A stretch of DNA of 64,000 nucleotides from Candidatus Omnitrophota bacterium (lineage in GTDB: Bacteria; Omnitrophota; Gorgyraeia; JAHJTE01). The stretch spans positions 6,736 through 70,735 of the forward strand of contig JBFMEB010000008.1 of NCBI GenBank assembly GCA_040753675.1, written 5' to 3'. The translations under genes and the position numbers were made by a program. Below, piece by piece: positions 2 to 18,000 of this stretch (position 1 is the first letter of the stretch; every line of letters starts with the position of its first letter). A model generated the notes under the pieces. That model made no database searches. It was not told where the DNA came from and saw only the letters and a program-made list of their open reading frames with translations.

Positions 2-3000
2 AACGATTGGGCGGCAGCAGTCAAAGTTGATATAGCTGTAAATGTGGGAGGTAAAATTGAAGGTCCTCACCCGACCCTTACTGTTATTACTTCCAGAAAG
101 AATGGCCCCGAAGGGCTCTTAGATTATCTGGCTATTCTTGAGCAGGTTTTATTAAATGCTGATACATCATTTGAAACTGCATTTTCTCAAGAAGCAAGGG
201 ATAACAATAATCTCACTAAGGCAGTTTCAGTTGAGTGGTATGGGGATGATTATCCCGAGAATCAGACTACTGTATACGAAAACACAAGAAATATCGAAGC
301 ATACATTATGCTAAGGTTGAATAAGCGAGTAGCGCAGCCGCAGAAACAACTCTTGATGCGCGTATGGGGCAATTTATTGGATAATCCGCATTCATGGTTT
401 GAGATTCCTATGAAGATAGTGAATGATTATCAAAATGGTAGTTATCGCTTTAGAGGCATTTTGCCTCAGTTCTTTTCAGGTACATTTACTTACAGGTGTT
501 CACTCGATGGTGGTAGAACTTGGTTCTGGTTGAATAAGGGGCCTCAGGACAATAGGGTAATTATCAATAAGCTTGAGCCATCAGCAGAGTTAAGTGAAAG
601 AGAAACATTTATTCAATTTGCGCCACCTCGCACATCTCTAAGAAGTATGACTGAACAAGCACCAGACACAGAGCAATTCTACTATAGTAATAAGGATAGA
701 GGAGACGTTGCGAGGTTTACTCAAAATATTGCTGGAGATAAACGCTTTGTATACTATTTTGCCAGAGCACAGGTTAGCCAGGCAGAAGGCGAAGAAAATA
801 GGGTAATTTTTGCAGATTATATTGAGGGCAAAGACAAAAGGTTAGGTGGCTCAATCGCAATATACTTTACTAAAAAAGATATGACCATAACTATTGAGAT
901 GAATGGCGCAATGCAAAGTGAAACGGTAATATCAGATGACGCAGAAGAAGAGACGCGTGGCGAGCGAGGTTGGGATAGAGCCAAAATAGTAGTCTTTTTA
1001 GATGATGATTATACAGTGCGTAGCGTTGAGCATCTCAGGAGTTCTATGGGCCTGTCGCGGATTGCAATTTCGATATTATTGACTGATGCCGGTATCCCTC
1101 GTCTATTACCAGAATTATATAGCATTTTAAAAAGACAATTATCCCTATCAGATGTTGATGATCTATTGCGCCACGTTGAAAAAATAGATAATCAAATAGC
1201 ACCTCTAAGTTTGATTTCTCATATTAATGGCCTGCTTGCCTCTAAAAAAACGCAGGATATCACAGATGAAGATATTCTAAGAGTCAGAGACTTAATATAC
1301 TGCAAGAGCTGGATTATAAGAAGAATCACGTTAAAATGCCTATATAATTTAGTAAAGCATAATAGGTTCTCGGCTGAAGAGTTAGAAGAGCTAAGAGATT
1401 TTTCATTACGGAGTAATATTGCCGAAGATTTACATATATTCAGAAGAATGTTCATAGAAGACCCCCAGAGCATCGTCGATACGATTAATTCATTGTTTAA
1501 AATCCAGATAAACAGTCAAGACTTGGCACATGCTTATATACGCTGGTTTGGTGCAGGGCAAAATAAGAATATTTATAGGGCCACTATATTTTTACGCTCC
1601 GGCAAAGAATTCAGTATTGCCTTATCTACAATCAGGCATGATCCTATCGGAGAAGGCTTTGATAGAAAAAGAATTGATGAAGCTACAGAATTTTGGCGAG
1701 AATTATCTAATAATAATTGTCCTCAACTTTGCAAGTTTGGTATGTCGTTATGGGCCGAAGACTATAGGCCGCGCATAGCAGATAAACCTATTTTGCCTAC
1801 GCTAAAGAGGCAGGCATACGATACGAGCCGTTTGATTAGTAATGATGTACAAGTCGTATTGCGAGAGTTTGTAGAAGGTCATGACTTACAGCAGAGTGTA
1901 GATGAAGAGAATATTTCTCCGGAGGAGAAGCGAAAGGCAGTATCAACTTGTGTAAGACTAGTTAAAGGTCTTTGGAAATTTTCCTCCCAGCAGTTTTATA
2001 TAAGTGATTATAAACCAGCTAATATTGTATTGACCAAAGACGCAGAGGGGCAATTTGTAGCCAAGATAGTTGATTTAGATATACTGAGGGCAAACGGAGA
2101 GATTTCTGATTTGCTAGATTCTATGGAAAGCTATTCCTGTTATAAAGAATATCTTGCCGGATTAAAAGAATCGCTTGAATCAAGGCATAGCATCACTGGC
2201 GTTACTGCTAGAGAGCCCATAGATGCCTCGAGTCGCGGAAACAGCCGCGAAGGAGTTACTGCACTCATCAGCCAATTTGGCGGCATTGAGGCAATCATCC
2301 AGCAATTTGGCAGTTTAACAATTCAACAGATTAAGGAATTATATCAGATACCAGAATCAGACTTAACTCGTTTAGTTAATTTAGGTGTGCAGTTTACCCG
2401 TGGCCCTCCTGAACTTGGCGTTGCAAATCACTTCCAAGAAAATACTATTTACATTTTAATTCCTGTAAACGCAACTCTCCAAGAAGTCTCTCATGAAATA
2501 TTCGCAGTTCTTAATCCAGAAGTAACCCACCAGCAGAACCCCATCCGCCTTGCCATCAACAATCCTGGTCCTTCTGAATTTGAAATAATCCGCCAATACT
2601 TGAAAGGCAACTTATCCAGCATACAGCTTGTAAATGTAAACGGCGTATCACCTGCTAATCTGCATTACTTATTAACCAAGGACTTGGCAGCAGAGCCAAG
2701 CTTTAGACAATGGTTTAACCAGAATATCTTTGCTACTTCTTCTGGCTTAGCCAGTAAGGATACCTCTGGCAAAGAAGTTGAGCTCTTATCTGTAACTGAG
2801 ATTATTGAGACCAAAGACCTTCCCTGGAAGTCCTTGGATGTTGATGTAGTCTTAGAAGCTCAAGAGGTAAAACTTGCACCTGTGCATATAAACCAAGGCG
2901 CAAAGAGGGTCTTAGTAAATCATCCTTCAATCCTTGCAGTAAGTGCTTTAAGGCAAGTAGTCTTGAGTCTGCCCCAGGATAAGATTATTGCTGTTGAATT

Positions 3001-6000
3001 TACAGATATCCAGCCGCCTACTAATTTACAGCGCGGCTTAGACAATTCTGGTCCTGACCCAGTCTTAATGAGAGCAATGCGTATTAACGTTAGCTCTTGC
3101 TTTAGCCAGGATGTAAAACAGGTCCTTAGCCAGCTTATTCCCCAGTTAGCTCAAATTACCCAAGGCCGCATCCACTTTAGTCCTCAGGCTCAAGGTAGTC
3201 TCTTAGATATACACATAATCTTGAAAGAGGATACTGACATAAAGACCATTAATCAGTTGTTTAAACAAGCTTCTCTGACTAGCTTAAAAGATAGACTCAT
3301 CTACTCTGAGGATAATTCTATAGTCTCATCTGATTTAGCTGCAGAGCCAAAACTCATTTACTTATCCCGCTCTACCAAGGTCACTGGCAAGAGAATAGTC
3401 CACTTACAAGTCTGGCACAATGAGCATACTGGGTTTAGCTTAACCCAATTACCAGAGGTTTTATCTCTCTTGCAAACAAAAACTCCTGGCACTATTATCA
3501 GTTCAAAAGATTTATCAGCTATCCCAACTAAACTCGAACAACTCCTTAGCTGGGTTAGGACTCAAAGGCAAGATTTATCTATTAGTTCTGGTACCTCATC
3601 TTACTTACCTCATCCTACTCGCAAACTTCCTAAGATATTGCCGGATGATATCAGGGCAATTGTAGGCATTAATGGCCCAGGCAGAACTGGCCGCACTATT
3701 TGTTGGGCAATGGCTGGCAATCCTAACATTGACCTGCGTATGATCAACGGCGCATCCAGTGCCTTTGTCTTGATGTGGTTATTAGCAGAAGATACTGTGC
3801 AAGCCTCAACCCATAAGCCAGTAGCCAGACTCATCATTACCTATACTCAACTAAAAAGAGAATTAAACACCTTATTAGTAAACTATTCATACGAAGAAGT
3901 CCAGACCATGTTAGAAGGACTGATTAGTTCAAGTAGGCTCTTGGTATTAGAAGAAGATGAGTTTAATAAAGCCTTATCCAAGCTCTTAACTACCTGGGCT
4001 AATCAAAACCCAGAACAGGGAGTGAGTAAACTAAAAGCCTCTCTAATCGCAATATTAGACCTCTCTGGTAAAAAACTCCTCTTAACCAACGAACGAAAAG
4101 CAGTAAGCGAACTTGCCTGGAACCAGGCTGGTATAAACATTATCTTAGAATGTACTGGTGATTTAAAGAATGCAGATGAGGCAAGCCAGCATTTAACTAA
4201 CATCCCAGGCGGCAAGGTCATTATCTCAGCTCCAGCTGAAGGCGCTGGCCAGTCAGTAGTCCTGCCCATAATATTACCTTCTAAGGCAGCCAGGATTGTT
4301 GACAATGCCTCTTGCACTACTAATTGCTTAGTTCCTGCTACTTATGTTTTAGATAGAGAATTTGGAGTTATTGCTCAAGAGATACTTACTGACCATGCCT
4401 ATACCACTGACCAGGTGTTTGGCAAACATGCTCCTCATAAAAAAGAGCCCACCCGAGGAAGAGATGGAGGGATTAACATCCTGCCTGGCTCAACTGGAGC
4501 AGCCACAGCAGCAGCTAAGATTATTACGAGCTTAATTGGCAAATCTGATGGCTGGGCAGTAAGAGCTCCAGTAGTTACTGGAAGCGTGGTAGTTATTACT
4601 GCTGTGCTTAAAGGCAAGGTTAGCCGAGAAGATATACAACATGCCTTAAGAAAAGCCAGTCTTACCTACTTAAAAGGCGTACTTGGCTACACTGTTAATC
4701 CTATTACCTCAAGCAGCCTTATTGGTAATCCAGCTTCCAGCATTGCTGATGGTAATTCTATTCAAGTGATTAACTATGATGAAGAACTTAATCAGACCAT
4801 AGTAAGACTTGAGACCTGGTACGATAACGAAACTGGCTTCTCTACCAGAATGGTTGACCATGCAGTGTATGTTGCAGGCCTAATGCAATTACCCGGAAGA
4901 GTCATTGCTGACATAGGTCCTGATACAATTGAATTATTTAGGAAACATCTACAAGATAATCTATCTACAGAAGGCACTATTCTCTGGAACGGTCCATTAG
5001 GCGTAGTTGAGGTTCCTGTTACAGCCAAAGGCACAGAGGCAATAGCCGATACAATTGCAGGCCTACCTGCAAGTATTACCAAGGTCATTGGTGGTGGAGA
5101 CACCTTAAAGACCTTACCTGATTCTATCCGAAGACAGATGACCCACGTCTCAACTGGTGGAGGTGCATTCTTAGAGGCATTCCAATTCGGCGTTGAAAAC
5201 CTTCCTGGCTTAAAGGCATTAGTTGACCCAGAGACTAAACAATTCAGCCAATTAGATGAGCTGTTAGCTAAATTAAAAGATGGCGATAGCGTCTTAATCC
5301 GTGCTGACTTTAACGTGCCGTTAGATTCCCAGCTCAATGTCACTGATAATACCCGCATTGTTGAGGCCTTAGCTACTATCAGGGATATATTAAATACTAA
5401 AAAGGTAAAGGTGATACTCTTAACCCATCTTGGCAGACCCAATGGCAAGTATGATCCTAAACTTACTACTACTCCCATATATGAGGAATTATTAAGACTC
5501 TTACCTGAATATAAAATACATAAGGTAAATGACTGCGTTGGTGAACCAGTAAGACAATTTATTAAAGATACCTTAGCCCCCGGCGAGATTCTATTGTTGG
5601 AAAACTCCCGCTTCAGATTAGCTGAAGAGCTTAACTCTGATAGCTTCTCTCAAGAATTAGCTAACTTGGCTACTTATTATGTCAATGATGCCTTTGCAGT
5701 AAACCACAGGGCACATAGCTCTAACGTAGGGGTGACTAAATTCTTGAAGTTCGGCCATAAGTTTGCTGGCCGCCTCTTGGAAAAAGAATACCTCCACCTC
5801 AAAGCCCTTTGTGAAAACCCCACTCAACCTCTCATCGTGCTCCTGGCAGGCGGCAAGGTTGCTGACAAGATGCCTATTATCAATGCAGTTAAGGATAAGG
5901 CAATACTCTTCTTAATTGCTGGCAAGATGTCAGTTGCCTTCTTAGAAGCAAAAGGAATTAAAGTAGGCGATTCTTATCCGGATAAGCAAGATGTGGAATT

Positions 6001-9000
6001 AGCTGCTAAGCTCTTAGCTGACCCAACCTTAGCTCAGAAGATCATCCTGCCTATTGACTACACTGTAGTCACCGATGTCTCCACAGGAAAAGATGCCACA
6101 CTAGAGAAAGGAGATGTTCTTCCTACTGATACCTCTGTATTCGAAGCAGCATTTAGAGACTACTTGACTTATTATGTCCCTGACCAGACTCAGGAGGCAA
6201 AGGCAAGAGAACCAAGAGACGCCTCTGCTGAAGGCAAAACTCGCGAAGAAGTTACTACACTCATCAGCCAATTCGGCGGCATCCAGGCACTCATCAACCA
6301 ATTCGGCAGTTTAACAATTCAACAGATTAAGGAATTATATCAGATACCAGAATCAGACTTAACCGGCTTAATTGATTTAGGCGTGCAGTTTATTCGAGGC
6401 CCTCCTGAGCTTGGAGTTGCCAACCATGTTGAAAACTCCCTTACCTATATTATCATCCCTGAAACCGCCACTTCCAAAGAAGTCTCTCACGAAATAAATG
6501 CAGTCTTAAATCCCGAGCTTACTCATGAAGAAAATCCAATCCGCCTAAGTATATCTCTTTACGGACCTCATCCTTCACAAGAAGGGCTAAGGCTCTTATA
6601 TGAGAAGGTAGCAGGAGCACGTCAACAAAAACCAGCTGACTTTAGAATCAGAAGTCTCTATGCCTTCCCGGTTCAAAAACATGGCGCCACCCCTTCTGAT
6701 GCAATAAGTTTTGGTTGTGTTTTAGAAAGCGGCCCAATATTAGAACAGGCAGGAGTAATGGGAGGTATCTCAGCTGGCGAGGCAGAACCCGGAACACACG
6801 AGAGTATAAATGCTGCAATTAAATTCTTTAACGAATATGTAGCCAAAGAATTCATTGGCTTAAATGTCGCAGACCCAGAGAAAATAACTAAAAAAATTAT
6901 TGAATTAGACGATAAGTTTAAGGCTCAAGCTGAAAACAAAGATAAACCTCGTTTCTCTTACATTGGCTCTGAGATTTCAGTTGGTATCTCGATGATTGTC
7001 TCAATTGCCTTTGCTGAGAGATTAGGCGTTCCTTTGGAAATAGTTTTAAATTATCGTTACAATGAATATGCCCTAACCCATAATTTAGCTACAGGACTAA
7101 AGCCTATAACTATTCCAGTAAATTATTCAGTTGTCTGGGAAGGGGGAAAACACGGTGCAGCCAAATTCTTACCAGAATTAGTAGAAGCAGGCATTATTAA
7201 AGATGACAGCCGCTTCCCAAAGGAATTCAAAGACCCTGGGAGAATCGCAAAAGGCGATAAATCCGTTATGCTGGCAATGGTCCCGCCACAAGAGACCCAG
7301 GTCATTGTCTTTGCTCCTACCTGGAGACAGGCTCGTGATATAGGAATTAAGCTTACCAAAAAATATCAGGCCTTACTTAAGGAAAACGGAATTAATATAG
7401 AATATGGCGCTGAATCTGGCCGAACTACTAAACAAGTCTACACCAAAGATAAACGGCTTATTACCTTAGAATTAGTCTTAGATATTTTAGAAGATGCAGT
7501 AAATTCCCTGCCAGAAGAAGAGCAAAGATTTGTGCGCTATGCCTTAGACATTGCCTCTTCTGAAATGTATATACCAGAGATTGATATGTATTACATTGGT
7601 CCTTCTTCTGCCGGCAATGATAGCGGCTTAGTTACAAATGAAGAATTTACTAAATATAAATTAGAACTATTTAAGAGATATCCGCGCTTCATCTCCTGCG
7701 AAGACTGGGCAGATGAAAATAAAATAGAGCACTGGGAATCTGCTAAAGCCATAATGCCGACAATGATTCAGATGAGTGATGATAATGTGGTCTCAAATGC
7801 TCTCCTCATCAGGAAGTTTACCCAGGCAGGAGTAATGAATGCCCATTTACAAAAAGCTAATCAGTCAGCAGAAGAATTGGCTATGATTGAGGCAGTTGCT
7901 ACGAGCCACTTCTTAAATAATGTAGTTATCTTCTCTCACCGCGGCACTCGTCCAGAACTTGAGACATACACTGCAATTTCGGCTATAGCTATGGGTGCAT
8001 TTGCTGGCAAATGGACCTTATGGGGACCTGGAAGAGGTGCTTTAATTGCAGTTATGAATCAGGTAGATGAACTATATAACCAAGGTCCTTATAAAAATGT
8101 TACCGTTACTTATCAAGGCGGCCTTGTTTTAGATCCAAACGGCCCCTATAAAGATTATGGCTGGGCAAAGAGATTGAGAGAAGAGATTGGCTCTGCGGTT
8201 TATAAAAGGCGGCATATTTTAAAGCAACTTTTCAACAATAAGGTGGCTTCTAAAATAATTTATGTGGTGCTTAAAGGCGCAAGAGAAGAACTTGAAGGAG
8301 TTGCTCATCCTAATTTAGATAATATAGCAAAGCAATCTGCTTTAGGATTGATAAATATCGTTGGCGACCAAGGCAATACTCTTAATTTAGTTTTAGAAGA
8401 AGCTGCTAACCTGGGGATGGATGTTATTTCTTTTGCTGGAAAGAATTTGACTGAGCAAATCGAAGGATTAGAGACAAACATTCCAAATCATAATTTCTTC
8501 TCTTTAGAAATAGATAGCAGAGATGTAGGTAGTTTCGATGGTTTTATCCCGCAAATCCTCAGTATGATGAATTTTGAAAATGCCTATACATTGGTTATTA
8601 CTACAGACTCTTTTGACATCGCTCCAATTTTAATTTATTCCAAAAATAGCAGACAATATAAAGGTATAGATAGATTTACACAAGAACAGGCAAGAGAGGG
8701 AAGTTTAGGTGTCATATCAGGCCAGGATATTTTATCTTTGACACTTGGCCATGCGGGTAGATTGGATAAAGTAGATGGCCCGGTTGATACTGGCGATAAA
8801 AATGAGCCTTTTGTCGAAACAGTTCCTGGGTTAACTTATACAAGGAGTCCTTCTAAGATTGTTTTCTTGGTGATGGACGGATTAGGGGATGTGCCTTTTG
8901 ACGCTGATACAGCATTAGAAAAAGCTCATCATCCTAATTTAGATACTTTGGTAAAACAATCTTCTGTCGGATTAGTAGATATTTCTTCCCTGCCAGGCGT

Positions 9001-12000
9001 TACTCCGGGTTCAGGCCCGGGTCACGCTGCCATCTTTGGTTATAACATATTTAACTTTTTAGGAAGAGGCCCAGTAGATGCTTTAGGAGCAGGCCTTAAA
9101 GTAGGGCCTGGCAATGTTGTAGCCAGAGCTAATCTTGCCACGCTAAGAGATGGAAAAGTTGTTGATAGAAGAGCAGGCAGGCCTAAGACAGAGCAAACAG
9201 CAGAAATTGTTAAAAAATATCTTTCTGGCATAGAGATTAACGGAGTAAGGTTTAATTTTTATGCAACCCAAGAATATCGTATGGCGCTAATTATTGAAGG
9301 AGAGGATTTATATCCAGATGTTACAGACACTGATTCAGGAATGGGAGGAGTAGCTCCTTGGCCGGCTCAGGCACGTTCAGAAAAGGGAGTCAAGTTAGCT
9401 GGTTTAATAAATAAACTAACACCAGAGATAAATAGAAGATTAGCTGACAATGAAATTTTACCAGCAGCAAATACAGTATTGCTTAGGGCATTTGATATTT
9501 TAAAACCATTTCCTACTTTGAAAGAACTCTACGGCCTAACAGCTGGTGCAATCTGCACTCACGCTGCTTATAAAGGTATAGCTACTCTAATAGGAATGGA
9601 TGTTATTTCTTTTGCTGGCCAAAGTATTCCAGAACAAATTGAAGCGTTAAGAGCAAACGTCTCAAAATATGACTTTATATATTTTCATATCAAAAAGACA
9701 GATAGCTATGGGGAGGACGGAAATTTTGAGGCAAAGGTTAAGGTAATTGAAGAACTCGATAGCTTTATACCAACGATTCTTGAGATGCTTGATTTAGAAA
9801 GAAGCGATACTTTAGTCCTGACAGCAGACCATAGCACCCCTGCACGGATAAAGGCGCATTCTTTCCATCCTGTCCCTGTGCTTATATATTCTAATAGAAG
9901 CAAACCATCACCCGGCGTAGAAACATTCACTGAGCAAGAGTCCGAAAAGGGAAGTTTAGGCAGAATACCAGCCAAGGTTATTATGCCTTTGACGTTATGG
10001 CACGCTGGTAAGGCGGAGAACTCAGGGCGCTCTGGAGGTTCTCAAAATATATTCTTTAGCATCGTCTCTGGCATTGGATTGGTAACTCCATCTGGCCTCT
10101 CCCTTGAATTAGATTCAATCTCGTATCTATTAATGGCTGGATTATTATTCGTAGGCTTATTGACTCACATTCCAGTTATTGAAGTGCTACGTGCGCATCT
10201 GGAAGAATTGATTTATGCAAAATCAAAGATGCCCTTCTATTATTCTTCTGAGCCGGAAAGGGAAAATCTCTTTATTGGCGTAGATGGCAAAAGAATATTG
10301 ACCAATCAGGATTTTGGAATATTGCTTAACAATTTGCAACTTCTCATAGGTTTTGTCAAAGAATGGCGCGATGGTTCTAAAGATATGCCATTTGCTGATT
10401 ACATAAAAGGCAAAATAGGCGCAGGGTCGCTGAAAGTTGAAATACAAAAAGAGCAAGGCCGTCAGCTAAACTTTAGAATCGGTGATGCCGTTGATATAGC
10501 GATGGATATCGCCACATTGGAGATTATCAATCAAAAGGGCTTGTCATTTTTACCAAGGTCTCAACATTATGCATCGATAGCAAGAGCGCGTTATAGACAT
10601 GAGATGGGAACTGAGGTCTTAATGGACGGCGAAGCCAATATGGGACTGGATACCTTTATTAGCTGGGAAAGAATAATTGAAGATAATATTGACAAAATTT
10701 CCAAAGCAGAAAGTACATTGCAAAAACTAAATTATGTTGGCGAAGACCAAAGTTTTGAAATCAAACTTGATGAAGAGAAAAATGTTGGAGAAGATGAAGA
10801 AATAGCCAAGATTGATGAGCAGCTGTGGCTACAAGATACCTTCTTTACTCTAGATGACCATCAAAACGTAGTGAATTGGCTCAACGGCCTTTATTATAGT
10901 GCTTTTGGCAGTGACGCCTTTGGAAGATTAGATAAACGGGGGACTTTGGAAGAGGCAAATGCGAAACAAAGTGCCCAGGACCTGCATGAACAATTACGTC
11001 AATTAGAAAAAGATGGCAATCTGCCAATGGGTGAGATGGTCGTTCATGAATGGGGTGCTGGCGACGGATTTTCAGCTGCAGTCTTTCTAGATATGATGCA
11101 CCAACTCGACGGGCAACACGGGACAAATTATTATGGAAGGTCAGCATATTATTTGATTGATTATTCCCAAAGAGTTGTTGAAGATTTTGCAGATAAACCT
11201 TATTTATTACCCCACAGACAAGTCATACGATTTATTCAAGCCGATGCCTTAGAGGCCAATGACAGCCTGCCCAAAGCCATTCTCATTAGGGCCAATCTTT
11301 TATTGAATTCTCTGCCTCGAAAGCTGATTAGGATAAGTGGCAGGCGGGGTGATGACATCCAAGAGGTGACGACTCGTGCTTATTTGAATCTTGGGCCTGA
11401 GGAAGAAATCGCGGACTTATCAGGTAAGCGCTACTTGATACCAGAATTAAAACGAATTATTTTAGAAGGCGATGTTGAGGCGCTTAGGAAATTAGGCATA
11501 AACTTTTTCAATCGTATCCAATGGAAGACCAAATACGAGAAAATAGATACTCATTACTACCCTTACAGAGAATATTTAGAGACTCTAGATGACTTAGGTC
11601 CGCGACGATGGGAACCATTTAGAGGAATGGTGACTCTTGAGTTAGGCACCCTATTCTTTTTGCAGCATAGAGTTAATAATCTCAGTAGGGAAGGTAAGAT
11701 ACAAATTAGTGATGCCGGTGTTAGTCCGTTTGATCTTCGGGAAAGTTCGAGCAATAATTTGGGAAAAATATTTAGATTCTACGGAGCGATATATTCCCCG
11801 GTTAATTATCACTTTCTGAAATTTAGCTTAGGGTTATCAATTTCGCTGGGAGTTGTTCACCAAGTCGACTTTGGCTTTGAATTCGTAGAAAGAAGAATCA
11901 AATTATGCAATGTCCTTAATGTTCTACAGGATTTTTCAACTTTTAAGAAGCTTTTCGGCTCTCCCTTTGCAAAGCCGGAAGTTTTGCAGTTAGCCTCAGA

Positions 12001-15000
12001 AGAAAGCGGGGAGTTTAGTGGAGAGAATATGGATAGGTTTATCGAGCATTTAAATAACAGAGCCCAAACATTAAATCGCCGACTTATTGAAGAGATAGTT
12101 CGTCCTTTTGAGGAAACCAGTCAATATGTAGATAATTTTGCAGATGCCTATGTGTATTGGCTCTACAGAGCAGTTCAGGACAGAAGAGAAGAATTGTTAA
12201 GAAAACAAAAATGGTTAATTCCGGGTAGTTGGCAGAGGTTGGCATTTGATAGTGAGCATAACGCATTTGCTCACCTTGCTGCTATTTACGGTTTTGACCA
12301 AAAGATCGACTCTATCTTTGCTGATATGAAATTCTTTTTCCCGAGCTTAATGATTTTTGATATTAAGCCAAGCAAAAGAGGAGGAAAGGTTTTACGCTTC
12401 ACTCCCCTCAGTTCTCTTATGGCTATTACTAAAATCTTTGGCAATGCGTTTCCAGGAGCCTTGCAATTACCCGCGTCATTCTCAAAGCGCAAAGATACTG
12501 CCATCGCCGGAGATAATAAAAATAGAGAAGCTGCCTTAGATATTTCAATGGCAAATGATGGGCTGATTTTTGAGATACCACAGGCGAAGAATGATGAGCT
12601 TTCAAGCCTTCCTTATGAATATGTTATTGTTCCATTAGTTGTTTCAAAGGAAAAAATTCCAGAGCCGCTTAAAGAGCTTATTGCTCAAACCAAGGGAACT
12701 GAAAAAGAGATTTCCCAAGCGGTGGTGAAATATCTGACTGAACAATTTAGCGCCACATCCATTAGCGTCCTTTCTAAACAAGTGCGGTCGCATAAGATTG
12801 CGGATGAAAAAGACTCAGAGGGGAAACCGCTAGGTCCAATTATCTTAGATGCATTATCTGCTATTGCAGTTATAAGCAGTAGCGGCGACCTTTTAATCCA
12901 GACACACTTCTGGATTAATTATAAATATATGGCATTTATTAATGAATGGAATGGAGAAATCGCTGAAGGTTTAGCTAAGTGTGAAGTTAGTCTTAGCGAT
13001 GAGTGGTATAAAGAAATTGACTTAAGCAAGCCGTTAGAATCATTAGCGCGTTACGGATTTATGTTCTTTAAGGAATTTAGCGAAGGTAATTATGGTCGAG
13101 CAAATCTTTTAGCCAGTCTCATTGATTCTATCAATAGAGATATTGAAAAACTTATCAACCCGGAAGGGATTATCTACGACGAACAATTGGGCGTGTTTAT
13201 TTCATCAAAGGATAGCGATGCTAAAATCCCTGGCTTTGGAAAGCATTTAGAGAAATTTTTAGGTAGTCTTAATAGCGTCCAGCAATTAGCTCAACTCTTG
13301 TATCTGTTGGCTACACCTAACTACGACAGAGAGCAAAACTCACCCATAGCGGTTAATAATCAACAATTACAAAATGGCCTTGTTGAGTTCTTTTGTCGCC
13401 TAAGTCGGCATTTAGACACATTAGCTATAGGGCACTTTGGTGATTTTGCTATGTTTGAGCCATTAAGGATAGAACTCGGTAGAATAATTACTCAATTCAA
13501 TAGAGTGGTTAGAGAACCGGACGCTATGGAGATTAATGGCACTGATTTTGATAGCTTAATTACCTTCCTTGAAGATAAAGGTGCCTACGTCTCAAATTAT
13601 GACGCTGAAAATCTTAGAAGCTTGTATCAAGCTTATGCTTTAGAGAACGGCTATTGGGCTTATGATATCTTGCAATTATCTGAAGTTTTGGGAATTGAGA
13701 GTTTTGTTAAGGCATTTAGGTTCTTGAAAGTTGAATCTGCGAGAGCAGTAAAGCCATCAGAGAGGCCTAATGAAATTTTTGATGGCACAGGCCGCATTGG
13801 ACGTTTAGGTTTGGCTTTAAGACTTGCCAATGATGTGAAAGCCCAAGAGGCAGATTACTCCGGCCGCTACGCAGTTAGAACGCGCGCTCTCAAAGGAAGC
13901 AATGCTGATGAAAAATTCCTGACCGCCCTTGAAAGCGTAAAAGATATGTTTGCTGACAGCGTCATTGAGGCATCTGGCTTAAAATTGCGCGGCAGGACTT
14001 TAGCAGAGTTGATTAAGGACAATCAATTAGTCTTTAAACCAGCCGACAGAGTTTTTGTTGCCAGGCAGGATTTTGTGAATAGAACCCCGGTTGAAAGTGT
14101 CTATCCAATTTATATTGAACTCGACGCTAAAAGAATAGGGGTCATCTATGCTATTGATGTAACTCAGTTTACCGAAGGCCTTAAAGCCAGTGGTGTTATA
14201 GAAGATAATTATCCCCGACCCTTTATCGTCGAAGTCGATGGTGAAGACATTTATTTTGGAATGCTCACTGATGCTACGCCGGGTGGTGTGCAGATGGGCG
14301 ATGGCACAATTGAACTAGCTGGTAAAGCCAAATTAGAAAGGCCGACTGTCTGGGAAATGATTGCCACAACCAAATTAACTGAAAGTGCTTCAGAAGAATT
14401 AGGCGCTGCTAAAGAAGAGTTAGAGCGACTACGTGAAATCTTGCGTCAAGTTGAGACTGCAAGATTCGGGGCCTGGCATCAGCGCTTCATTTATCTTAAA
14501 GCCCAGATTACCGGAAAACTCTTGTTGCCTTTAAGCGGCGGCATTCATTTTATGGGTAGATACTTGCATAAATTGCCTAAGGCAAAAGAACAGGGTCCTT
14601 ATTATGCAACGCCAACCTCTTGCTCTACCAACGGCGCCTCTTACTTTAGTCTTATGCTTTCAACGCTCTTTGGTTTTGGCCGTATGAGAGCAGCGCTCTT
14701 AGGGACAACATTCCATATGTATACATCTGACGGGAAAAAAGGCCCGTTCGGACACTTATTCCCTAAATCCACTGGCGCGGCAAACGGTGTTAAGCAGCAC
14801 CTGGATATTACAGCTATGTTTACAGCTCTTCGCACCCCGGTTGCTTTGACAGGCGGTGAGGTAGATGTTGTAGGCGGTTCAGTCTTTGATTTTGTGTTCC
14901 AAACTCCTTATCCAGTCCCCAAAGAAGTGATTATAGGTTTCTTGCAACGCGTTGGCCTTGAGTATCCCGAGGTTTTGAAGGTCTTTGAAAAAGAAGATGC

Positions 15001-18000
15001 CAAAGATGGTCGTTATCTTTGGAAGGATACAATAGGGGGCAAAAGAACCGGCTCTATACTTTATGCTAATATGCTGGCGCAAATTACCGATAATACCTTC
15101 CGGGTTCCTGTTGGTTACGACAATGAAATGAGTTTTTCTTTCAAGATGAATGAGTTCGCAGAAAGCTTATTCTTGTCTTTGAAGAGACAGGAGGACAAGA
15201 GAAAAAGGCAAGAAGCATATCCTCTTCATTTTATTACGGCCAAGGCGATGGTTAGGGCAGCTGATGAATACCTGGCAGAGCCGATGATTGAAGCCCAGTT
15301 CAGGCGCTTAGGTTTGATACTCGAACATTTTGCCGAAGAATATTTAAAGAGATATTATCCTAATGGCTCTGATCTTCCTATTTCGGAAGAGTTAAAGATT
15401 GCTTCTCATATTTCCGGCAGAATGAAATGGGAAATTAACAACGGCGAAGAAACCTTTAAGCGAATCCTAAAGAATCTTGGCTATACTTTTGAAGATATTG
15501 ATTTTGCCTTGGAGCAGATTAAGCTTCACGAATCTTACTCAAGCGAAGATGAGGCAATATTAGCGCAGGCAGAGTCTCTGCGCAGTGGAATATATGAAGA
15601 GCCGGGTTATTCTGGCAGCCCGGTCTGGTTTGAAAAAGTGCAATGGGTAAATTTGGGCTTCGATGAATATAAACAAGGCCTTTTGGAGGTTGGGAGGGCT
15701 TTAAGCTCAGGCGAATTTGATAAAAATTCTACTGTTTATAGATTATGGCAACGCCGGGATTGGGATTTTTCAGATGAAGGCATAGAGCCATATAGAGCAG
15801 TAGTCGAAGAATTTAATAAATTTGTTAACCAGCCGCTAAGCCGCGAACAGGGGCCAAGGCAATTGAGGGATTTTATTATACGGCTGCATATCTTATTAGG
15901 CCAGGCAGACAAAACTTTTAGCGCTCCCGGCAGGATGCTGCCCCGAAGAGATAAATGGAGAAGAAGGCATGTGGCTTTCGAGCGCCTGCTCTTCTATATG
16001 TTTACGCCTAAATTCCAGGAGCAATTGCGCAAAGACCCGTTTGAGGCAGCCAGTTATGTATTTATTGGCTTATGGAGTGAGCCGGTATTCTCAGACGGCC
16101 AACTGCGTATCGCATATTTTATTATGAATTATGTTTTAATCAAAGCCGGGTTTAAACCTTTTATAATTACTAAAGATAATATTGGAAAATATACAGATGC
16201 ATTCATACTTTATTCCAGCGCTCATTATAAAAGTATGGCTAAAAATATATTAGAAAATTTACTTAGCGGACAACCTCGGGCTCATTTATGGTTTACCTCA
16301 TCCTTACCGGATTATGTGAGCTTAGAGCCTGAGCGAGAGCCCCGGTTTAAGAGAGAAGAAGTTAGGGAGGGTGTTTTGGATGGCGAATGGCTTGAGTCAG
16401 TAGAAGCACTTCCAAAAGACCTGACTGTTTCGGAATTATCCATATTATTAGAACATCCTTTTGATGATTTCTGCGACTTTGCGATTGATGAATTAGAAAG
16501 CATAGGCGACAGAAGGGCAATAGTTCCTCTTTATGACAGAGTTAAGCAACTTCAGGATGAGGCGGCAGGCATGGATAGATATGGTAAACAAATTGTATTT
16601 GGAAGGCACGGGAGTTCTTTTGTAGGCGCTTCCTGGGATGAGATTGAGGAAAATCTCGAATGGCGTAATATTATGTCAGAGATTGGAAGAATTCTTTATT
16701 GTATCGATGCCATAAGAAACAGGGAGGCAAAGAGATTCGCGCGTTACTATTATCCAACTGCAGGATTAGGCAAATTATATCGCGAAAGAATTGTAGATAT
16801 TATTGAAAATGGCAGGATGAGGGAAGAATTATTTGAAGGAAACGTGGGAGAATTCATCAAACTCATCCGTGCTTATGATAAAAAGCATGGAACAAATCTT
16901 TCCCAGCAGGTTGTGTTTGCAGGCGGCTCGGTAAGAGACCCTATATTTGGAAGATTTAGCAATGATATTGACTTTAGCGTGGCTTTACCTGGTTTGAGTA
17001 ACGGAGATTTTTATGCCAATACCATTGCTCAAGTCTCTGATGTGGATATGGAAAGATGCCTTAAGATACTCATAACTGTTGCAGAGATTATCGGGGTTGA
17101 GCCCGAATCTTTGGTAAACGGAAAGGCAAAATTTCAAGGTGAGGAAATAGATTATTGCGGCCCGATAAGGCAAAGGTTGTCAGACGGCCGGGTGATTAAT
17201 AAAAGAAGGATTTTGGTTGATATAGATAGGAATACAATTTATACCGATTGCACTATGGCGCTTAATAGAATTGCTATGGATATGGACGGCAAGATGTACG
17301 GAAGCTTATTCGGCCTTTTTGATTTCTTAAGAGGTAAAATTCATTTTGGCGGGGATTACAAGGATATTACCTTGAATAATGTAGTCAGGGCTTTGAGGAC
17401 CTCATTTGGTACTGATACGCAAATCTCCAGGTTTGACCAGGATAGGATGAGAGAAGTAATAGAAAAATATAGAAGCGGAGAATATCCTTTGGTTACCGTA
17501 GACGTAGAAGTTATCCAGCGCCAGATTGATAGGATGGAAAGGGGAGAAAAGACTCCCGGTTCAGCTGTAAAATTATTAGAAAGATGGGGCATAATAGAAT
17601 TATTGGTTGAAGCCAAAAAGGCAATTGAGGTAACTGCGCCAGAACAAATTTTACATACAGAAGGCGTGTTTGTTTCTAAGGCCGAGCAGCCAAAAAAAGA
17701 GCCGACTATCTCTCTCACAGATGCGCCAGCTATGGGCGTTAGGCCAGATAGGGCAGGGCTTTCTGAAGAAGAAAGAGAAATGTTAAGGAAAATGTCCGAA
17801 GCTGAACGACTTGCTCATCTTAGGGATAACACAACTACCTTGCTTAGTATAATTCTGCTGGCTTTATTATTTTTTAGCGGCAAGGAAGCGGTATCTTTAA
17901 TGGCTATGTCATTTATGATGATGGCTACAGTAGCCGAAGTCAAAGGCAATAAAGGCATTGAGGAAACCTTAAGGAGATTTTACACAGCTAAGAAGGCACT

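What the first reader, a model, noticed from the sequence alone, without database searches (positions are those of the whole stretch)
3650..10020. Lower-glycolysis enzymes (GAPDH, PGK, enolase, phosphoglycerate mutase) fused in series inside the giant ORF with catalytic motifs intact
The four consecutive enzymes of the pay-off phase of glycolysis sit as adjacent domains of one polypeptide, in near pathway order. They are not degenerate scaffolds. GAPDH keeps SCTTNC and the His block. Enolase keeps its Asp/Glu metal ligands and the Lys/His catalytic positions. apgM keeps DGLGD and DHSTP. The junctions were checked and carry no stop or start. Transmembrane segments follow directly. A membrane-tethered 'pathway-on-a-string' of this kind is not a described architecture.
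Basis: partly seen in the sequence, partly recalled or inferred. Interest (0 to 1): 0.9.

Follow-up and report, generated by a model that had tools for sequence, protein, structure and literature searches.

The report
Lower-glycolysis enzymes inside a giant protein
One uninterrupted gene longer than 64 kb really does string together the enzymes of the energy-yielding half of glycolysis with their active sites intact, but this belongs to a recently described class of giant multi-enzyme proteins of Omnitrophota bacteria, and its new features are a naturally rearranged phosphoglycerate kinase and inactive partner copies of two enzymes.

Summary
Frame +2 has no stop codon in all 64,000 bases (21,333 codons, open at both ends). 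Between nt 3656 and 10021 it encodes GAPDH, PGK, enolase and cofactor-independent phosphoglycerate mutase (apgM). Catalytic and ligand residues are essentially all present. A hydrophobic hairpin follows at nt 10049-10180.

- PGK is circularly permuted: C-terminal residues ~306-408 come before residues ~24-285.
- A catalytically dead GAPDH copy lies just upstream, at nt 2546-3496.
- A truncated dead apgM copy lies between enolase and apgM.

The block [dead GAPDH - GAPDH - permuted PGK] recurs at 43-59% identity in about six 1.6-3.6 kaa proteins. Two come from named Omnitrophota genome assemblies. All carry N-terminal signal-peptide-like sequences, and some add PFK, aldolase-like, TIM or enolase domains.

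Giant multi-enzyme Omnitrophota proteins, including ones with glycolytic domains, are already described in preprints from 2023 and 2026. "Not a described architecture" is therefore too strong.

Best reading: catalytically competent, membrane-tethered glycolytic enzymes that arose by fusion of gap-operon genes. Which side of the membrane they face is unresolved. Verdict: new variant of a known kind, interest about 0.6.

The parts
2..64000 (+). Single open reading frame of 21,333 codons, open at both window ends. It is the giant gene that contains everything below.
   Evidence: 0 stops in this frame against 719-2117 in the other five. Pfam domains are found along its whole length.
2207..2572 (+). 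Linker repeat, copy 1 (aa 736-857). It precedes the GAPDH module.
   Evidence: 73% aa identity and 75% nt identity to copy 2. No Pfam or PDB match.
2546..3496 (+). Pseudo-GAPDH (aa 849-1165). It has a full-length GAPDH fold signature but the active site is lost: NHPSILAVSAL replaces SCTTNC, Ile replaces His176, and the GxGxxG motif is degenerate (AINNPGPSE).
   Evidence: PDB 1hdg E=2.7e-15 with alignment. NCBIfam GAPDH-I scores 70.6 bits. It is conserved, with its own invariant motifs, in all 6 family members.
3656..4882 (+). GAPDH (aa 1219-1627) with catalytic Cys149, His176, Thr179 and Arg231. An extra ~71-residue helical insertion sits in the NAD domain (aa ~1269-1353). Position 32 is Gly and position 187 is Ala.
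   Evidence: PDB 1gd1/1dbv E~1e-54 with alignments. The family alignment shows these residues invariant. Pfam.
4901..5221 (+). Permuted PGK, first piece (aa 1634-1740). It corresponds to canonical PGK residues ~306-408 (DIGP, WNGPLG, GGGDT, STGGGA).
   Evidence: phmmer against PDB 7zy7 and 1vpe: query 10-116 aligns to chain 306-408.
5255..6139 (+). Permuted PGK, second piece (aa 1752-2046). It corresponds to canonical PGK residues ~13-300 (RADFNVP, HLGRP, LENSRF, NHRAHSS, GGKVADK).
   Evidence: phmmer: query 136-400 aligns to chain 24-285. Foldseek of the AF2 model finds PGK structures over ~300 columns. The same order occurs in P0001-P0005 and P0010.
6203..6568 (+). Linker repeat, copy 2 (aa 2068-2189). 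It precedes the enolase.
6554..8191 (+). Long-type enolase (aa 2185-2730, ~546 aa against ~430 canonical). It retains Ser42, His159, Glu168, Glu209, Asp246, Glu290, Asp317, Lys342, His370, Arg371 and Lys393 (E. coli numbering). Ser372 is Gly. A ~50-aa insertion sits between His159 and Glu168.
   Evidence: PDB 1iyx E=1.8e-17. MSA with canonical enolases. 57-69% identical to a family of stand-alone ~550-aa proteins, one of which is encoded next to an iPGM gene.
8219..8791 (+). Pseudo-apgM (aa 2740-2930). It is an internally deleted copy lacking the cap domain. Metal and active-site motifs are lost (VVLKGARE for MDGLGD, TTDSFD for TADHSTP).
   Evidence: Self-BLAST: aa 2801-2961 against 3194-3381, 35% identity, E=1e-25. 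NCBIfam NF003160 partial hit, 61 bits. Sequence read.
8852..10021 (+). apgM, a cofactor-independent phosphoglycerate mutase (aa 2951-3340). It has DGLGD, the Ser nucleophile (PGSGPGH), TDSYGEDG, TADHSTP and HSFHPVP.
   Evidence: PDB 2zkt E=1e-49. NCBIfam NF003160 418 bits and TIGR00306 316 bits. 40-47% identical to ordinary bacterial apgM, which share the GEDG variant.
10049..10180 (+). Two adjacent hydrophobic segments (aa 3350-3368 and 3375-3393) with an acidic ELDS loop. This is a putative transmembrane hairpin or a single TM. It is the first membrane candidate after at least 3,349 residues without one.
   Evidence: Kyte-Doolittle scan, 1.69 and 2.06, and flank charges. No dedicated TM predictor was available.

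Best explanation
The region encodes a catalytically competent lower-glycolysis block embedded in a giant, multi-pass membrane protein of an Omnitrophota-like bacterium.

Domain order and reactions: [dead GAPDH + GAPDH] - circularly permuted PGK - long-type enolase - [dead apgM + apgM]. GAPDH makes 1,3-bisphosphoglycerate. PGK makes ATP and 3-phosphoglycerate. apgM makes 2-phosphoglycerate. Enolase makes PEP.

Origin: the block most likely arose by fusion of neighbouring gap-operon-type genes. The PGK permutation is explained by a tandem PGK duplication followed by loss of the outer halves.

Role of the dead copies: they most likely supply, in cis, the partner subunit that these normally oligomeric enzymes need when tethered. 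PGK, which works as a monomer, has no such copy.

Location: the block is held at the membrane by the hairpin that follows it. I favour the cytoplasmic face (about 60:40), where it would deliver ATP, NADH and PEP locally to the kinase, AAA+ and PFOR modules of the same polypeptide.

Shown: domain identities, residue conservation, the permutation, conservation of the fusion in relatives.
Inferred: activity, cis-partner role, origin by operon fusion, membrane side, channelling.
For: - One ORF with no stops.
- Domain hits above Pfam cut-offs.
- Residue-level alignments to solved structures show GAPDH Cys149/His176/Arg231.
- They also show all PGK substrate- and nucleotide-binding motifs in both pieces.
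- Enolase keeps its ligands and acid/base residues.
- apgM keeps its metal ligands and Ser nucleophile.
- The apparent His-to-Glu change in apgM is the norm in bacterial apgM.
- The [dead GAPDH-GAPDH-permuted PGK] block is conserved at 43-59% identity in P0001-P0005, P0010 and L002, from independent assemblies.
- In those relatives catalytic residues are invariant in the active copy only.
- Three relatives (P0001, P0004, P0005) are complete ORFs in ordinary chromosomal neighbourhoods.
- The enolase type exists as a stand-alone gene next to iPGM.
- Tandem PGK-PGK proteins exist (P0011, P0013, P0016). These are the intermediate expected by the duplication model.
- An engineered circular permutant of PGK has been solved (1FW8).
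- Membrane side: hairpin flanks are basic and the loop acidic.
- The rest of the ORF carries FeS/TPP PFOR, ferredoxin, acyl-CoA dehydrogenase, PRPP synthetase, kinase and AAA+ modules. These need cytoplasmic cofactors.
- Several pairs of these enzyme blocks are separated by even numbers of TM candidates.
Against: - All mid-size relatives begin with a typical Sec-type signal peptide and have no other TM candidate. This predicts an extracytoplasmic location for the same enzymes.
- Published topology predictions put metabolic domains of other Omnitrophota giants outside the membrane.
- The first hydrophobic segment of the hairpin is weak (1.69). If it is not a TM, the block lies on the opposite side from the next block.
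- Flank charges at TM candidates 7185 and 13833 do not fit an all-cytoplasmic assignment.
- None of the four domains reaches NCBIfam equivalog cut-offs: GAPDH 233/367, enolase 83/300, apgM 418/468.
- The enolase has a 50-aa insertion in its active-site loop region, and Ser372 is Gly.
- AF2 models were only moderately confident (pLDDT 63 and 68). They could not test the cis-dimer idea.
- No activity or expression data exist for this sequence.
Confidence: 0.55

Rival explanations
1. Exported glycolysis. The block is catalytically active but lies outside the cytoplasmic membrane, in the periplasm, a surface coat or the prey interface. There it would process phosphorylated metabolites released from lysed prey, possibly generating ATP or PEP externally.
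For: - Every mid-size relative carries an N-terminal signal-peptide-like sequence with an A-x-A-type site and no further TM: P0001-P0005, P0012, P0029, P0173, P0178, P0182, P0188 and the PPDK-like neighbour in L002.
- Many share a motif just after it, LR[RK]P[SA]A.
- The same long-enolase family exists both without a signal peptide (next to iPGM) and with a signal peptide plus a C-terminal domain (P0173, P0178). This suggests a separate exported set.
- West-Roberts 2023 and Nielsen & Lui 2026 predict metabolic domains of giants to be extracellular.
Against: - GAPDH and PGK need NAD+, Pi, ADP and Mg2+, which are not maintained outside cells.
- The same ORF has FeS-, FAD- and ATP-dependent modules that cannot be matured or fuelled after Sec export.
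- Flank charges of the hairpin favour both flanks inside.
- The N-terminus of this ORF is outside the window, so no signal peptide is seen here.
Confidence: 0.25
2. Polyprotein. The giant ORF is a production format only. The enzymes are cut out after translation and act as ordinary free glycolytic enzymes.
For: - West-Roberts 2023 state that protease domains suggesting autocatalytic cleavage are ubiquitous in giant proteins.
- A conserved 122-aa element precedes both the GAPDH module and the enolase. It could mark processing sites.
- Domain order mirrors a gap operon.
Against: - The only peptidase domain found in the window is M49, at nt ~63.5 kb.
- GAPDH and permuted PGK are joined by only ~10 residues, and the junction is conserved in all relatives.
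- Dead partner copies make more sense if the chain stays intact.
Confidence: 0.12
3. Non-catalytic use. The enzyme folds serve as adhesins or scaffolds, as surface 'moonlighting' GAPDH, enolase and PGK do in other bacteria. Activity would be irrelevant.
For: - Two of the six domains are clearly dead, so pseudo-enzymes are tolerated here.
- Scores fall below NCBIfam equivalog cut-offs.
- Giants are proposed to be adhesion and cell-wall-attack proteins.
Against: - Catalytic residues are invariant across relatives at 43-59% identity in exactly one copy of each enzyme, while the sister copies lost them.
- All four enzymes of one pathway segment are together, which is not expected for adhesins.
Confidence: 0.07
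4. Artefact. The fusion comes from assembly chimerism or sequencing errors that removed the stops between separate genes.
For: - The source contig could not be found in any searchable collection.
- The enolase - dead apgM - apgM junctions have no independent confirmation.
Against: - 21,333 codons without a stop cannot arise by error.
- The dead GAPDH-GAPDH-permuted PGK junctions are reproduced in independent assemblies from NCBI, JGI and Logan.
Confidence: 0.01

Closest known systems
Giant multi-enzyme proteins of Omnitrophota: 'Archaeovorins' (West-Roberts et al. 2023, bioRxiv 10.1101/2023.11.21.568195) and 'multi-enzyme metabolic clusters' (Nielsen & Lui 2026, bioRxiv 10.64898/2026.06.07.730766)
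   Same: A single ORF of tens of kb. Many unrelated enzyme Pfams tile it and TM helices are interspersed. Glycolysis-related domains are reported (TIM, GPI, FBPase, PGM/PMM, FBP aldolase, PPDK). HATPase_c, GNAT, HAD and AAA_5 domains are also seen here.
   Different: Neither main text mentions GAPDH, PGK, enolase or apgM domains inside giants. The only supplementary text held, one file of the 2026 preprint, has no hit to their Pfam accessions; no supplement of the 2023 preprint is held. The permuted PGK and the dead partner copies are not described. Features said to typify Archaeovorins (SecA DEAD-like domain, HEAT, GT5) were not seen in this window.
Mid-size signal-peptide-bearing glycolytic fusion proteins in Omnitrophota assemblies. 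Examples: P0001 (3600 aa, JAPLLX010000004.1, annotated 'triose-phosphate isomerase'), P0004 (GCA_041643395.1), P0002/L002, P0003, P0005.
   Same: The same [dead GAPDH - GAPDH with insertion - permuted PGK] block at 43-59% identity and with identical junctions. P0001 also has the same long-type enolase (64% identity).
   Different: They are 1.6-3.6 kaa stand-alone genes with an N-terminal signal peptide and no later TM. They combine the block with PFK, an aldolase-like domain or TIM, and not with apgM. As far as I could find they are undescribed in the literature.
Natural bifunctional glycolytic fusions: the PGK-TIM bifunctional enzyme (NCBIfam NF010569), and canonical-order GAPDH-PGK fusions such as P0014 and P0015. 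From my own knowledge: PGK-TIM occurs in Thermotoga maritima, and TPI-GAPDH in stramenopile mitochondria.
   Same: Consecutive glycolytic enzymes joined in one chain.
   Different: These have two enzymes, are soluble, and show no permutation, no dead copies and no membrane tether.
Engineered circular permutant of yeast PGK (PDB 1FW8, permutation site 72)
   Same: It shows that a PGK chain with relocated termini can fold well enough to be solved. It was hit by the query and is listed as an engineered permutant in PMC2395249.
   Different: It is man-made and cut at residue 72, in the N domain. Here the cut is natural, lies at the DIGP loop of the C domain (~residue 305), and is conserved in a family.
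Tethered glycolytic assemblies of eukaryotes: erythrocyte band 3 complexes, the sperm fibrous sheath and flagellar glycolysis (my own knowledge, not tested here)
   Same: The idea of localised ATP supply by lower-glycolysis enzymes fixed to a membrane or scaffold.
   Different: Those are non-covalent assemblies of separate proteins.

Membership tests
Type I GAPDH (PF00044/PF02800, TIGR01534) | Catalytic Cys149 in the SCTTN motif, and His176 | tested here: met
   SCTTNC aa 1437-1442; TDHAYT aa 1463-1468. Aligned to 1gd1. Invariant in 6 relatives.
Type I GAPDH (PF00044/PF02800, TIGR01534) | N-terminal Rossmann GxGxxG, and the phosphate-site residues Thr179 and Arg231 | tested here: met
   GINGPGRTGR, HAYT and TRGR are aligned. 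Asp32 is replaced by Gly.
Type I GAPDH (PF00044/PF02800, TIGR01534) | Score above the curated family cut-off | tested here: inconclusive
   Pfam cut-offs are passed (56.3/31.7 and 129.9/24.4). The NCBIfam equivalog cut-off is not (232.9/367.2). A net ~71-residue insertion interrupts the NAD domain.
Phosphoglycerate kinase (PF00162) | Substrate- and nucleotide-binding motifs of both domains (RxDxNVP, HLGRP, LENxRF, HRAHxS, GGxKVxDK, NGPxG, GGGDT, TGGGA) | tested here: met
   All are present. Pfam 332 bits against a cut-off of 27.
Phosphoglycerate kinase (PF00162) | Canonical linear order, N domain then C domain | tested here: not met
   Residues ~306-408 precede residues ~24-285. The same holds in all close relatives. 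It is therefore a circular permutant of the family, not a standard member.
Enolase (PF03952/PF00113, TIGR01060) | Mg ligands Asp246/Glu290/Asp317 and catalytic Lys342, Glu209, His370, Lys393, Glu168, His159, Ser42 (E. coli numbering) | tested here: met
   The MSA with the canonical-type P0187 and E. coli enolase shows all conserved. Lys393 is two positions off in the pairwise phmmer alignment but aligned in the family MSA. Ser372 is Gly.
Enolase (PF03952/PF00113, TIGR01060) | Score above curated cut-offs | tested here: inconclusive
   Enolase_C is passed (61/21.5). Enolase_N fails (18.2/35). TIGR01060 gives 83.3 against 300. It belongs to a divergent ~550-aa subfamily.
Archaeal-type cofactor-independent phosphoglycerate mutase, apgM (PF10143 + PF01676, TIGR00306) | Metal ligands and Ser nucleophile (DGxGD, GS, TDxxG[H/E], DHS/GTP, H..P) | tested here: met
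   Aligned to 2zkt and 3idd. The Glu in TDSYGEDG is shared by ordinary bacterial apgM such as P0195 and P0205.
Archaeal-type cofactor-independent phosphoglycerate mutase, apgM (PF10143 + PF01676, TIGR00306) | Score above curated cut-offs | tested here: inconclusive
   Pfam is passed (145/24.3 and 104/21.5). TIGR00306 gives 316 against 320, and NF003160 gives 418 against 468.
Omnitrophota giant multi-enzyme metabolic proteins (Nielsen & Lui class 1) | A single polypeptide of at least 10,000 aa, tiled by many distinct Pfams with none dominating | tested here: met
   More than 21,333 aa and more than 25 distinct Pfam families. Definition.
Omnitrophota giant multi-enzyme metabolic proteins (Nielsen & Lui class 1) | Membrane association (TM helices and/or a signal peptide) | tested here: inconclusive
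   About 30 hydropathy-based TM candidates, some of which are false positives inside enzyme folds. The N-terminus is outside the window. DeepTMHMM is not available.
Omnitrophota giant multi-enzyme metabolic proteins (Nielsen & Lui class 1) | Encoded by an Omnitrophota genome | tested here: inconclusive
   One of the closest relatives is named Candidatus Omnitrophota/Omnitrophica by its record (P0001, JAPLLX01). The window's own contig was not found in genome, metagenome or viral collections.
Archaeovorins (West-Roberts 2023) | Divergent SecA DEAD helicase domain, HEAT repeats, GT5/GT1 domains | tested here: not met
   None of these Pfams was found in the 64-kb window. The ORF continues beyond both ends, so absence from the whole protein is not shown.

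The most novel reading that the evidence does not exclude
The block, like its signal-peptide-bearing relatives, is exported. It would form an extracytoplasmic, ATP- and PEP-yielding lower-glycolysis line on the surface or in the periplasm of an ultrasmall predatory bacterium. There it would harvest phosphorylated intermediates, NAD+ and ADP spilled from attacked prey. That would be substrate-level phosphorylation outside the cell's own cytoplasm.
Probability: 0.2. Interest if true: 0.9.

Novelty: new variant of a known kind. Interest (0 to 1): 0.6.

Why it matters
What the giant proteins of Omnitrophota do is an open question. Most of their length has no recognisable function.

This block is an unusually readable piece, for three reasons:
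- It holds four well-understood enzymes whose activity can be assayed after excision.
- Each oligomeric enzyme has a built-in dead copy as an internal control.
- Smaller relatives carry the same junctions.

It therefore offers a direct experimental handle on three questions. Are the metabolic domains of giants real enzymes? On which side of the membrane do they work? Does covalent stringing serve channelling, local ATP supply or merely co-production?

It also supplies what appears to be a natural, evolutionarily conserved circular permutant of PGK. Tandem PGK-PGK proteins in public data match the expected intermediate. That makes it a clean case for studying how two-domain hinge-bending enzymes tolerate rewiring.

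If the exported reading proves right, it would change how energy harvesting by epibiotic predators is understood.

Tried and rejected
- Apparent loss of a metal-ligand His in apgM (TDSYGEDG against TDxAGHD in archaeal structures). Rejected as degeneration, because ordinary bacterial apgM have the same Glu.
- Doubt about enolase Lys393 from pairwise alignment. Resolved by the family MSA.
- Finding the source contig. The protein-pattern scan of genome contigs returned only the Lac Pavin relative. The metagenome-contig scan returned one relative plus one weak hit. The viral-contig scan returned nothing. The giant itself is absent from both protein libraries. I therefore could not test whether the organism also has stand-alone gap, pgk, eno and gpm.
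- AlphaFold2 on GAPDH + permuted PGK and on dead GAPDH + GAPDH, each with a 6-sequence alignment, gave mean pLDDT 63 and 68. The cis-dimer idea and the docking of the PGK C-piece could not be checked.
- Foldseek aligns only the larger PGK piece (~300 columns), as expected for a sequential aligner.
- Accessory N- and C-terminal domains of the mid-size relatives were BLASTed against the giant, with no match. The PPDK-like neighbour of L002 also has no counterpart in the window.
- PDB sequence searches of aa 1-735 and aa 3394-4500 found nothing.
- Kizina et al. 2022, the paper on the V. archaeovorus giant protein, is not held in the library. Whether it mentions glycolytic domains could not be checked.
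- Literature search found no description of Omnitrophota PGK fusions or of natural PGK permutation.
- Topology from hydropathy, parity and flank charge was attempted. It is not reliable, because it gives false positives inside PFOR and acyl-CoA dehydrogenase folds and conflicts at two TMs.

Full report
**1. What is in the sequence**

The window is one reading frame. The frame beginning at nt 2 has no stop codon in 21,333 codons and runs off both ends. The other five frames have 719 to 2117 stops. The tool that lists closed ORFs returns only a 228-aa antisense ORF. Amino-acid i of the giant ORF is encoded by nt 3i-1 to 3i+1.

Pfam scans of the whole translation find these domains, in order:
- GAPDH, PGK, enolase and apgM (Metalloenzyme/PhosphMutase)
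- a weak VWA hit, then dynein-type AAA_5/AAA_7
- ferredoxin
- two pyruvate:ferredoxin oxidoreductase sets
- GNAT and HATPase_c
- acyl-CoA dehydrogenase
- PRPP synthetase
- a protein kinase
- a GT9 glycosyltransferase
- HAD
- peptidase M49

The finding's coordinates (3650-10020) match the span from the start of GAPDH to the end of apgM exactly.

**2. The four enzymes, residue by residue**

*GAPDH (aa 1219-1627).* It aligns to Geobacillus GAPDH (1gd1, E about 1e-54). GINGPGRTGR, SCTTNC (Cys149), His176, Thr179 and Arg231 are all in place. An 85-residue stretch replaces 14 residues of the NAD domain. Position 32 is Gly instead of Asp and position 187 is Ala. The top PDB hit is the 1dbv variant. 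The printed alignments show it differs from wild-type 1gd1 at positions 32 (Gly), 187 (Ala) and 188 (Ser). From memory, that variant was engineered to accept NADP. This hints at relaxed cofactor specificity, which is an inference.

*PGK.* It is circularly permuted. Window aa 1634-1740 align to PGK residues 306-408 (DIGP, WNGP, GGGDT, STGGGA). After a short linker, aa 1760-2024 align to residues 24-285 (RADFNVP, HLGRP, LENSRF, HRAHSS, GGKVADK). Nothing is missing. The cut falls exactly at the DIGP loop, and the old C- and N-termini are joined by about ten residues.

*Enolase (aa 2185-2730).* It is very divergent (best PDB E=1.8e-17). In an alignment with its own family, a canonical-type enolase (P0187) and E. 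coli enolase, it keeps Ser42, His159, Glu168, Glu209, Asp246, Glu290, Asp317, Lys342, His370, Arg371 and Lys393. Only Ser372 is changed, to Gly. About 50 residues are inserted between His159 and Glu168.

*apgM (aa 2951-3340).* It aligns end to end with archaeal apgM structures (E=1e-49). DGLGD, the Ser nucleophile, DHSTP and the distal His are present. The Glu in TDSYGEDG, where the archaeal proteins have His, is standard in bacterial apgM.

*Scores against curated cut-offs.* All Pfam gathering cut-offs are passed except Enolase_N. No NCBIfam equivalog cut-off is reached (GAPDH 233/367, enolase 83/300, apgM 418/468 and 316/320). Automated pipelines would therefore not name these domains with confidence.

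**3.

- Directly upstream (aa 849-1165, nt 2546-3496) lies a second, full-length GAPDH-like domain (E=2.7e-15 to 1hdg). NHPSILAVSAL replaces SCTTNC, Ile replaces His176, and the dinucleotide motif is degenerate.
- Between enolase and apgM (aa 2740-2930) lies an internally deleted apgM copy without the cap domain. It has lost the metal-binding motifs.
- A 122-residue element of unknown function occurs twice, before the GAPDH module and before the enolase. The copies share 73% amino-acid and 75% nucleotide identity. A third, divergent copy lies near aa 15145.
- The first membrane candidates in the window follow apgM. They are aa 3350-3368 (weak) and 3375-3393 (stronger), with an acidic four-residue loop and basic flanks.

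**4. Relatives**

A search with the four-domain region returned five proteins of 1588-3600 aa with the same block. BLAST shows window aa 777-2076 collinear with them at 43-55% identity. The enolase is 64% identical to that of P0001.

In a six-way alignment, every member has all of the following:
- the dead GAPDH, with its own invariant motifs such as LQRGLDNSGPDPVLMR
- the GAPDH insertion
- Gly32
- invariant Cys149 and His176
- the PGK permutation at the same point

Individual relatives:
- P0001 is a complete 3600-aa ORF on a 328-kb contig of a Lac Pavin Omnitrophota genome, among ordinary genes. Its order is signal peptide, N-domain, dead GAPDH, GAPDH, permuted PGK, an aldolase-like domain, TIM, long enolase.
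- P0002 and the 2500-aa ORF of L002 add PFK and the aldolase-like domain in front. In L002 they sit next to a signal-peptide-bearing PPDK-like protein of 1895 aa.
- P0004 and P0005 lie in a shared housekeeping neighbourhood with Dus, RecG and a methyltransferase.

An exhaustive HMMER pass over 1.84 billion representative proteins found only four proteins that match GAPDH plus permuted PGK in one stretch. The family is therefore rare.

The same pass turned up tandem PGK-PGK proteins (P0011, P0013, P0016). It also found signal-peptide-bearing tandem GAPDH-GAPDH(-PGK-GAPDH-GAPDH) proteins in which both copies keep the active site (P0012, P0029), and ordinary GAPDH-PGK fusions (P0014, P0015).

The window's enolase is 57-69% identical to a family of stand-alone proteins of about 550 aa. 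One of these is encoded next to an iPGM gene, uvrA and ATP synthase genes. Other members carry a signal peptide and a C-terminal extension (P0173, P0178). The closest apgM relative, P0188, is likewise signal peptide + apgM + C-terminal domain.

The window's own contig was not found in the genome, metagenome or viral collections.

**5. Interpretation**

*Activity.* Catalytic residues are retained in exactly one copy of each enzyme across relatives that differ at half of their positions, while the adjacent paralogous copies lost them. This is the signature of selection for catalysis, not for fold alone.

*Origin.* The order GAPDH-PGK-(TIM)-enolase/mutase mirrors the gap operon of many bacteria (my own knowledge). 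Together with the near-direct joins, this points to origin by fusion of neighbouring genes.

*Permutation.* The PGK permutation is what tandem duplication followed by loss of the outer halves would produce. Tandem PGKs exist. An engineered PGK permutant has been solved (1FW8).

*Dead copies.* GAPDH and apgM normally act as oligomers and PGK as a monomer (my own knowledge). The oligomeric enzymes have a degenerate tandem copy and PGK does not. I therefore propose that the dead copies serve as in-cis partner subunits for enzymes that cannot freely oligomerise when tethered. This is inference. The AF2 models (pLDDT 63 and 68, pTM 0.62 for the tandem) neither confirm nor refute it.

**6. Which side of the membrane**

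This is the main unresolved point.

For the cytoplasm:
- The enzymes need NAD+, ADP and Pi.
- The same polypeptide carries FeS/TPP, FAD, ATP, CoA and SAM-type modules.
- The hairpin's flanks are basic and its loop acidic.
- Several enzyme blocks are separated by even numbers of TM candidates, with a weakly scoring VWA-like block on the other side.

For the outside:
- All mid-size relatives begin with a typical Sec signal peptide and have no other TM candidate.
- Both preprints predict metabolic domains of giants to be extracytoplasmic.
- The first hairpin helix is weak.

I put about 60:40 on cytoplasmic against exported, given activity.

**7. Comparison with what is known, and novelty**

Giant ORFs of Omnitrophota are established. 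The V. archaeovorus ORF of 39,678 aa has peptide evidence, as reported in PMC10066038. West-Roberts et al. list upper-glycolysis and PPDK domains in such proteins. Nielsen & Lui define a multi-enzyme metabolic class.

I found no description of the following:
- the lower-glycolysis series inside a giant
- the conserved dead GAPDH / GAPDH / permuted PGK module
- a natural PGK permutation
- the signal-peptide-bearing glycolytic fusion proteins

Kizina et al. 2022 could not be read.

I rate it a new variant of a known kind, with interest 0.6.

Noticed in passing
window 2-64000 (+): The entire 64-kb window is one ORF with no stop. It carries many other enzyme modules: AAA_5/AAA_7 with a weak VWA hit, ferredoxin, two PFOR sets (aa ~10457-11868 and 12255-13772, 24-35% identical to each other), GNAT, HATPase_c, acyl-CoA dehydrogenase, PRPP synthetase, a protein kinase, GT9, HAD and peptidase M49. 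No pyruvate kinase or PPDK was found, so the PEP-to-pyruvate step is missing from the window.
   Followed up: partly
window 2207-2572 and 6203-6568; weaker copy near nt 45434-46036: A 122-aa element of unknown function is repeated. The copies share 73% aa and 75% nt identity, and identity by codon position is 0.79/0.86/0.59. One copy lies immediately before the GAPDH module and one before the enolase. Its end resembles the end of the N-terminal domain of P0001-type relatives. It may be a module boundary, a docking element or a processing element.
   Followed up: partly
window 2001-8000 compared with the rest: GC skew is slightly negative only across the glycolytic block (and near zero at 26-28 kb), while it is +0.1 to +0.2 elsewhere. 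GC content is also about 2 points higher. This is compatible with the enzyme block being recruited from ordinary genes into the giant ORF.
   Followed up: no
window 3737-3757 and ~4420-4440 (GAPDH positions 32 and 187): GAPDH has Gly32 (invariant in all six family members) and Ala187. From memory, these are the substitutions engineered into Geobacillus GAPDH to accept NADP. The 1dbv variant, which the alignments show carries Gly32, Ala187 and Ser188, is the best PDB hit.
   Followed up: partly
P0002, P0003, P0173, P0178, P0188 and L002:14642-20326 (N-termini): The signal-peptide-like N-termini of the fused or extended glycolytic enzymes are followed by a shared short motif, roughly LYA|[QD]..LR[RKT][PS]SA. 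It may be a lineage-specific sorting or processing signal.
   Followed up: no
L002 (Ga0265297_10001711) 5581-20329: Three adjacent signal-peptide-bearing genes: a 507-aa protein of unknown function, the 2500-aa PFK-aldolase-like-dead GAPDH-GAPDH-permuted PGK protein, and an 1895-aa PPDK-like protein. Together they cover most of glycolysis in two large polypeptides.
   Followed up: partly
P0011, P0013, P0016; P0012, P0029: Tandem PGK-PGK proteins (~795 aa) exist in public data. So do signal-peptide-bearing GAPDH-GAPDH(-PGK-GAPDH-GAPDH) proteins in which both GAPDH copies keep Cys and His. These are plausible evolutionary precursors of the permuted PGK and of the dead/active GAPDH pair.
   Followed up: partly
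L005 (Ga0568849_0000181) 10001-13523: A stand-alone member of the divergent ~550-aa enolase family is encoded directly upstream of an iPGM gene. This suggests the long enolase type is a working glycolytic enolase in some lineage.
   Followed up: partly
window 4792-5478 (-): The only closed ORF of at least 150 aa in the window is a 228-aa antisense ORF inside the GAPDH/PGK coding region. It is probably a by-product of the coding strand's composition.
   Followed up: no
window ~24413-25030 vs ~26354-26986, and ~28949-29908 vs ~29519-30451: Further internal protein repeats occur: aa 8138-8343 against 8785-8995 (52% identity), and a duplicated multi-TM block, aa 9650-9969 against 9840-10150 (34% identity).
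   Followed up: no
window ~11030-11080 (aa ~3680): A SAM-methyltransferase-like motif I (VVHEWGAGDGFSAAVFLD) occurs in the block after the hairpin. Pfam and PDB sequence searches gave no significant hit there.
   Followed up: no
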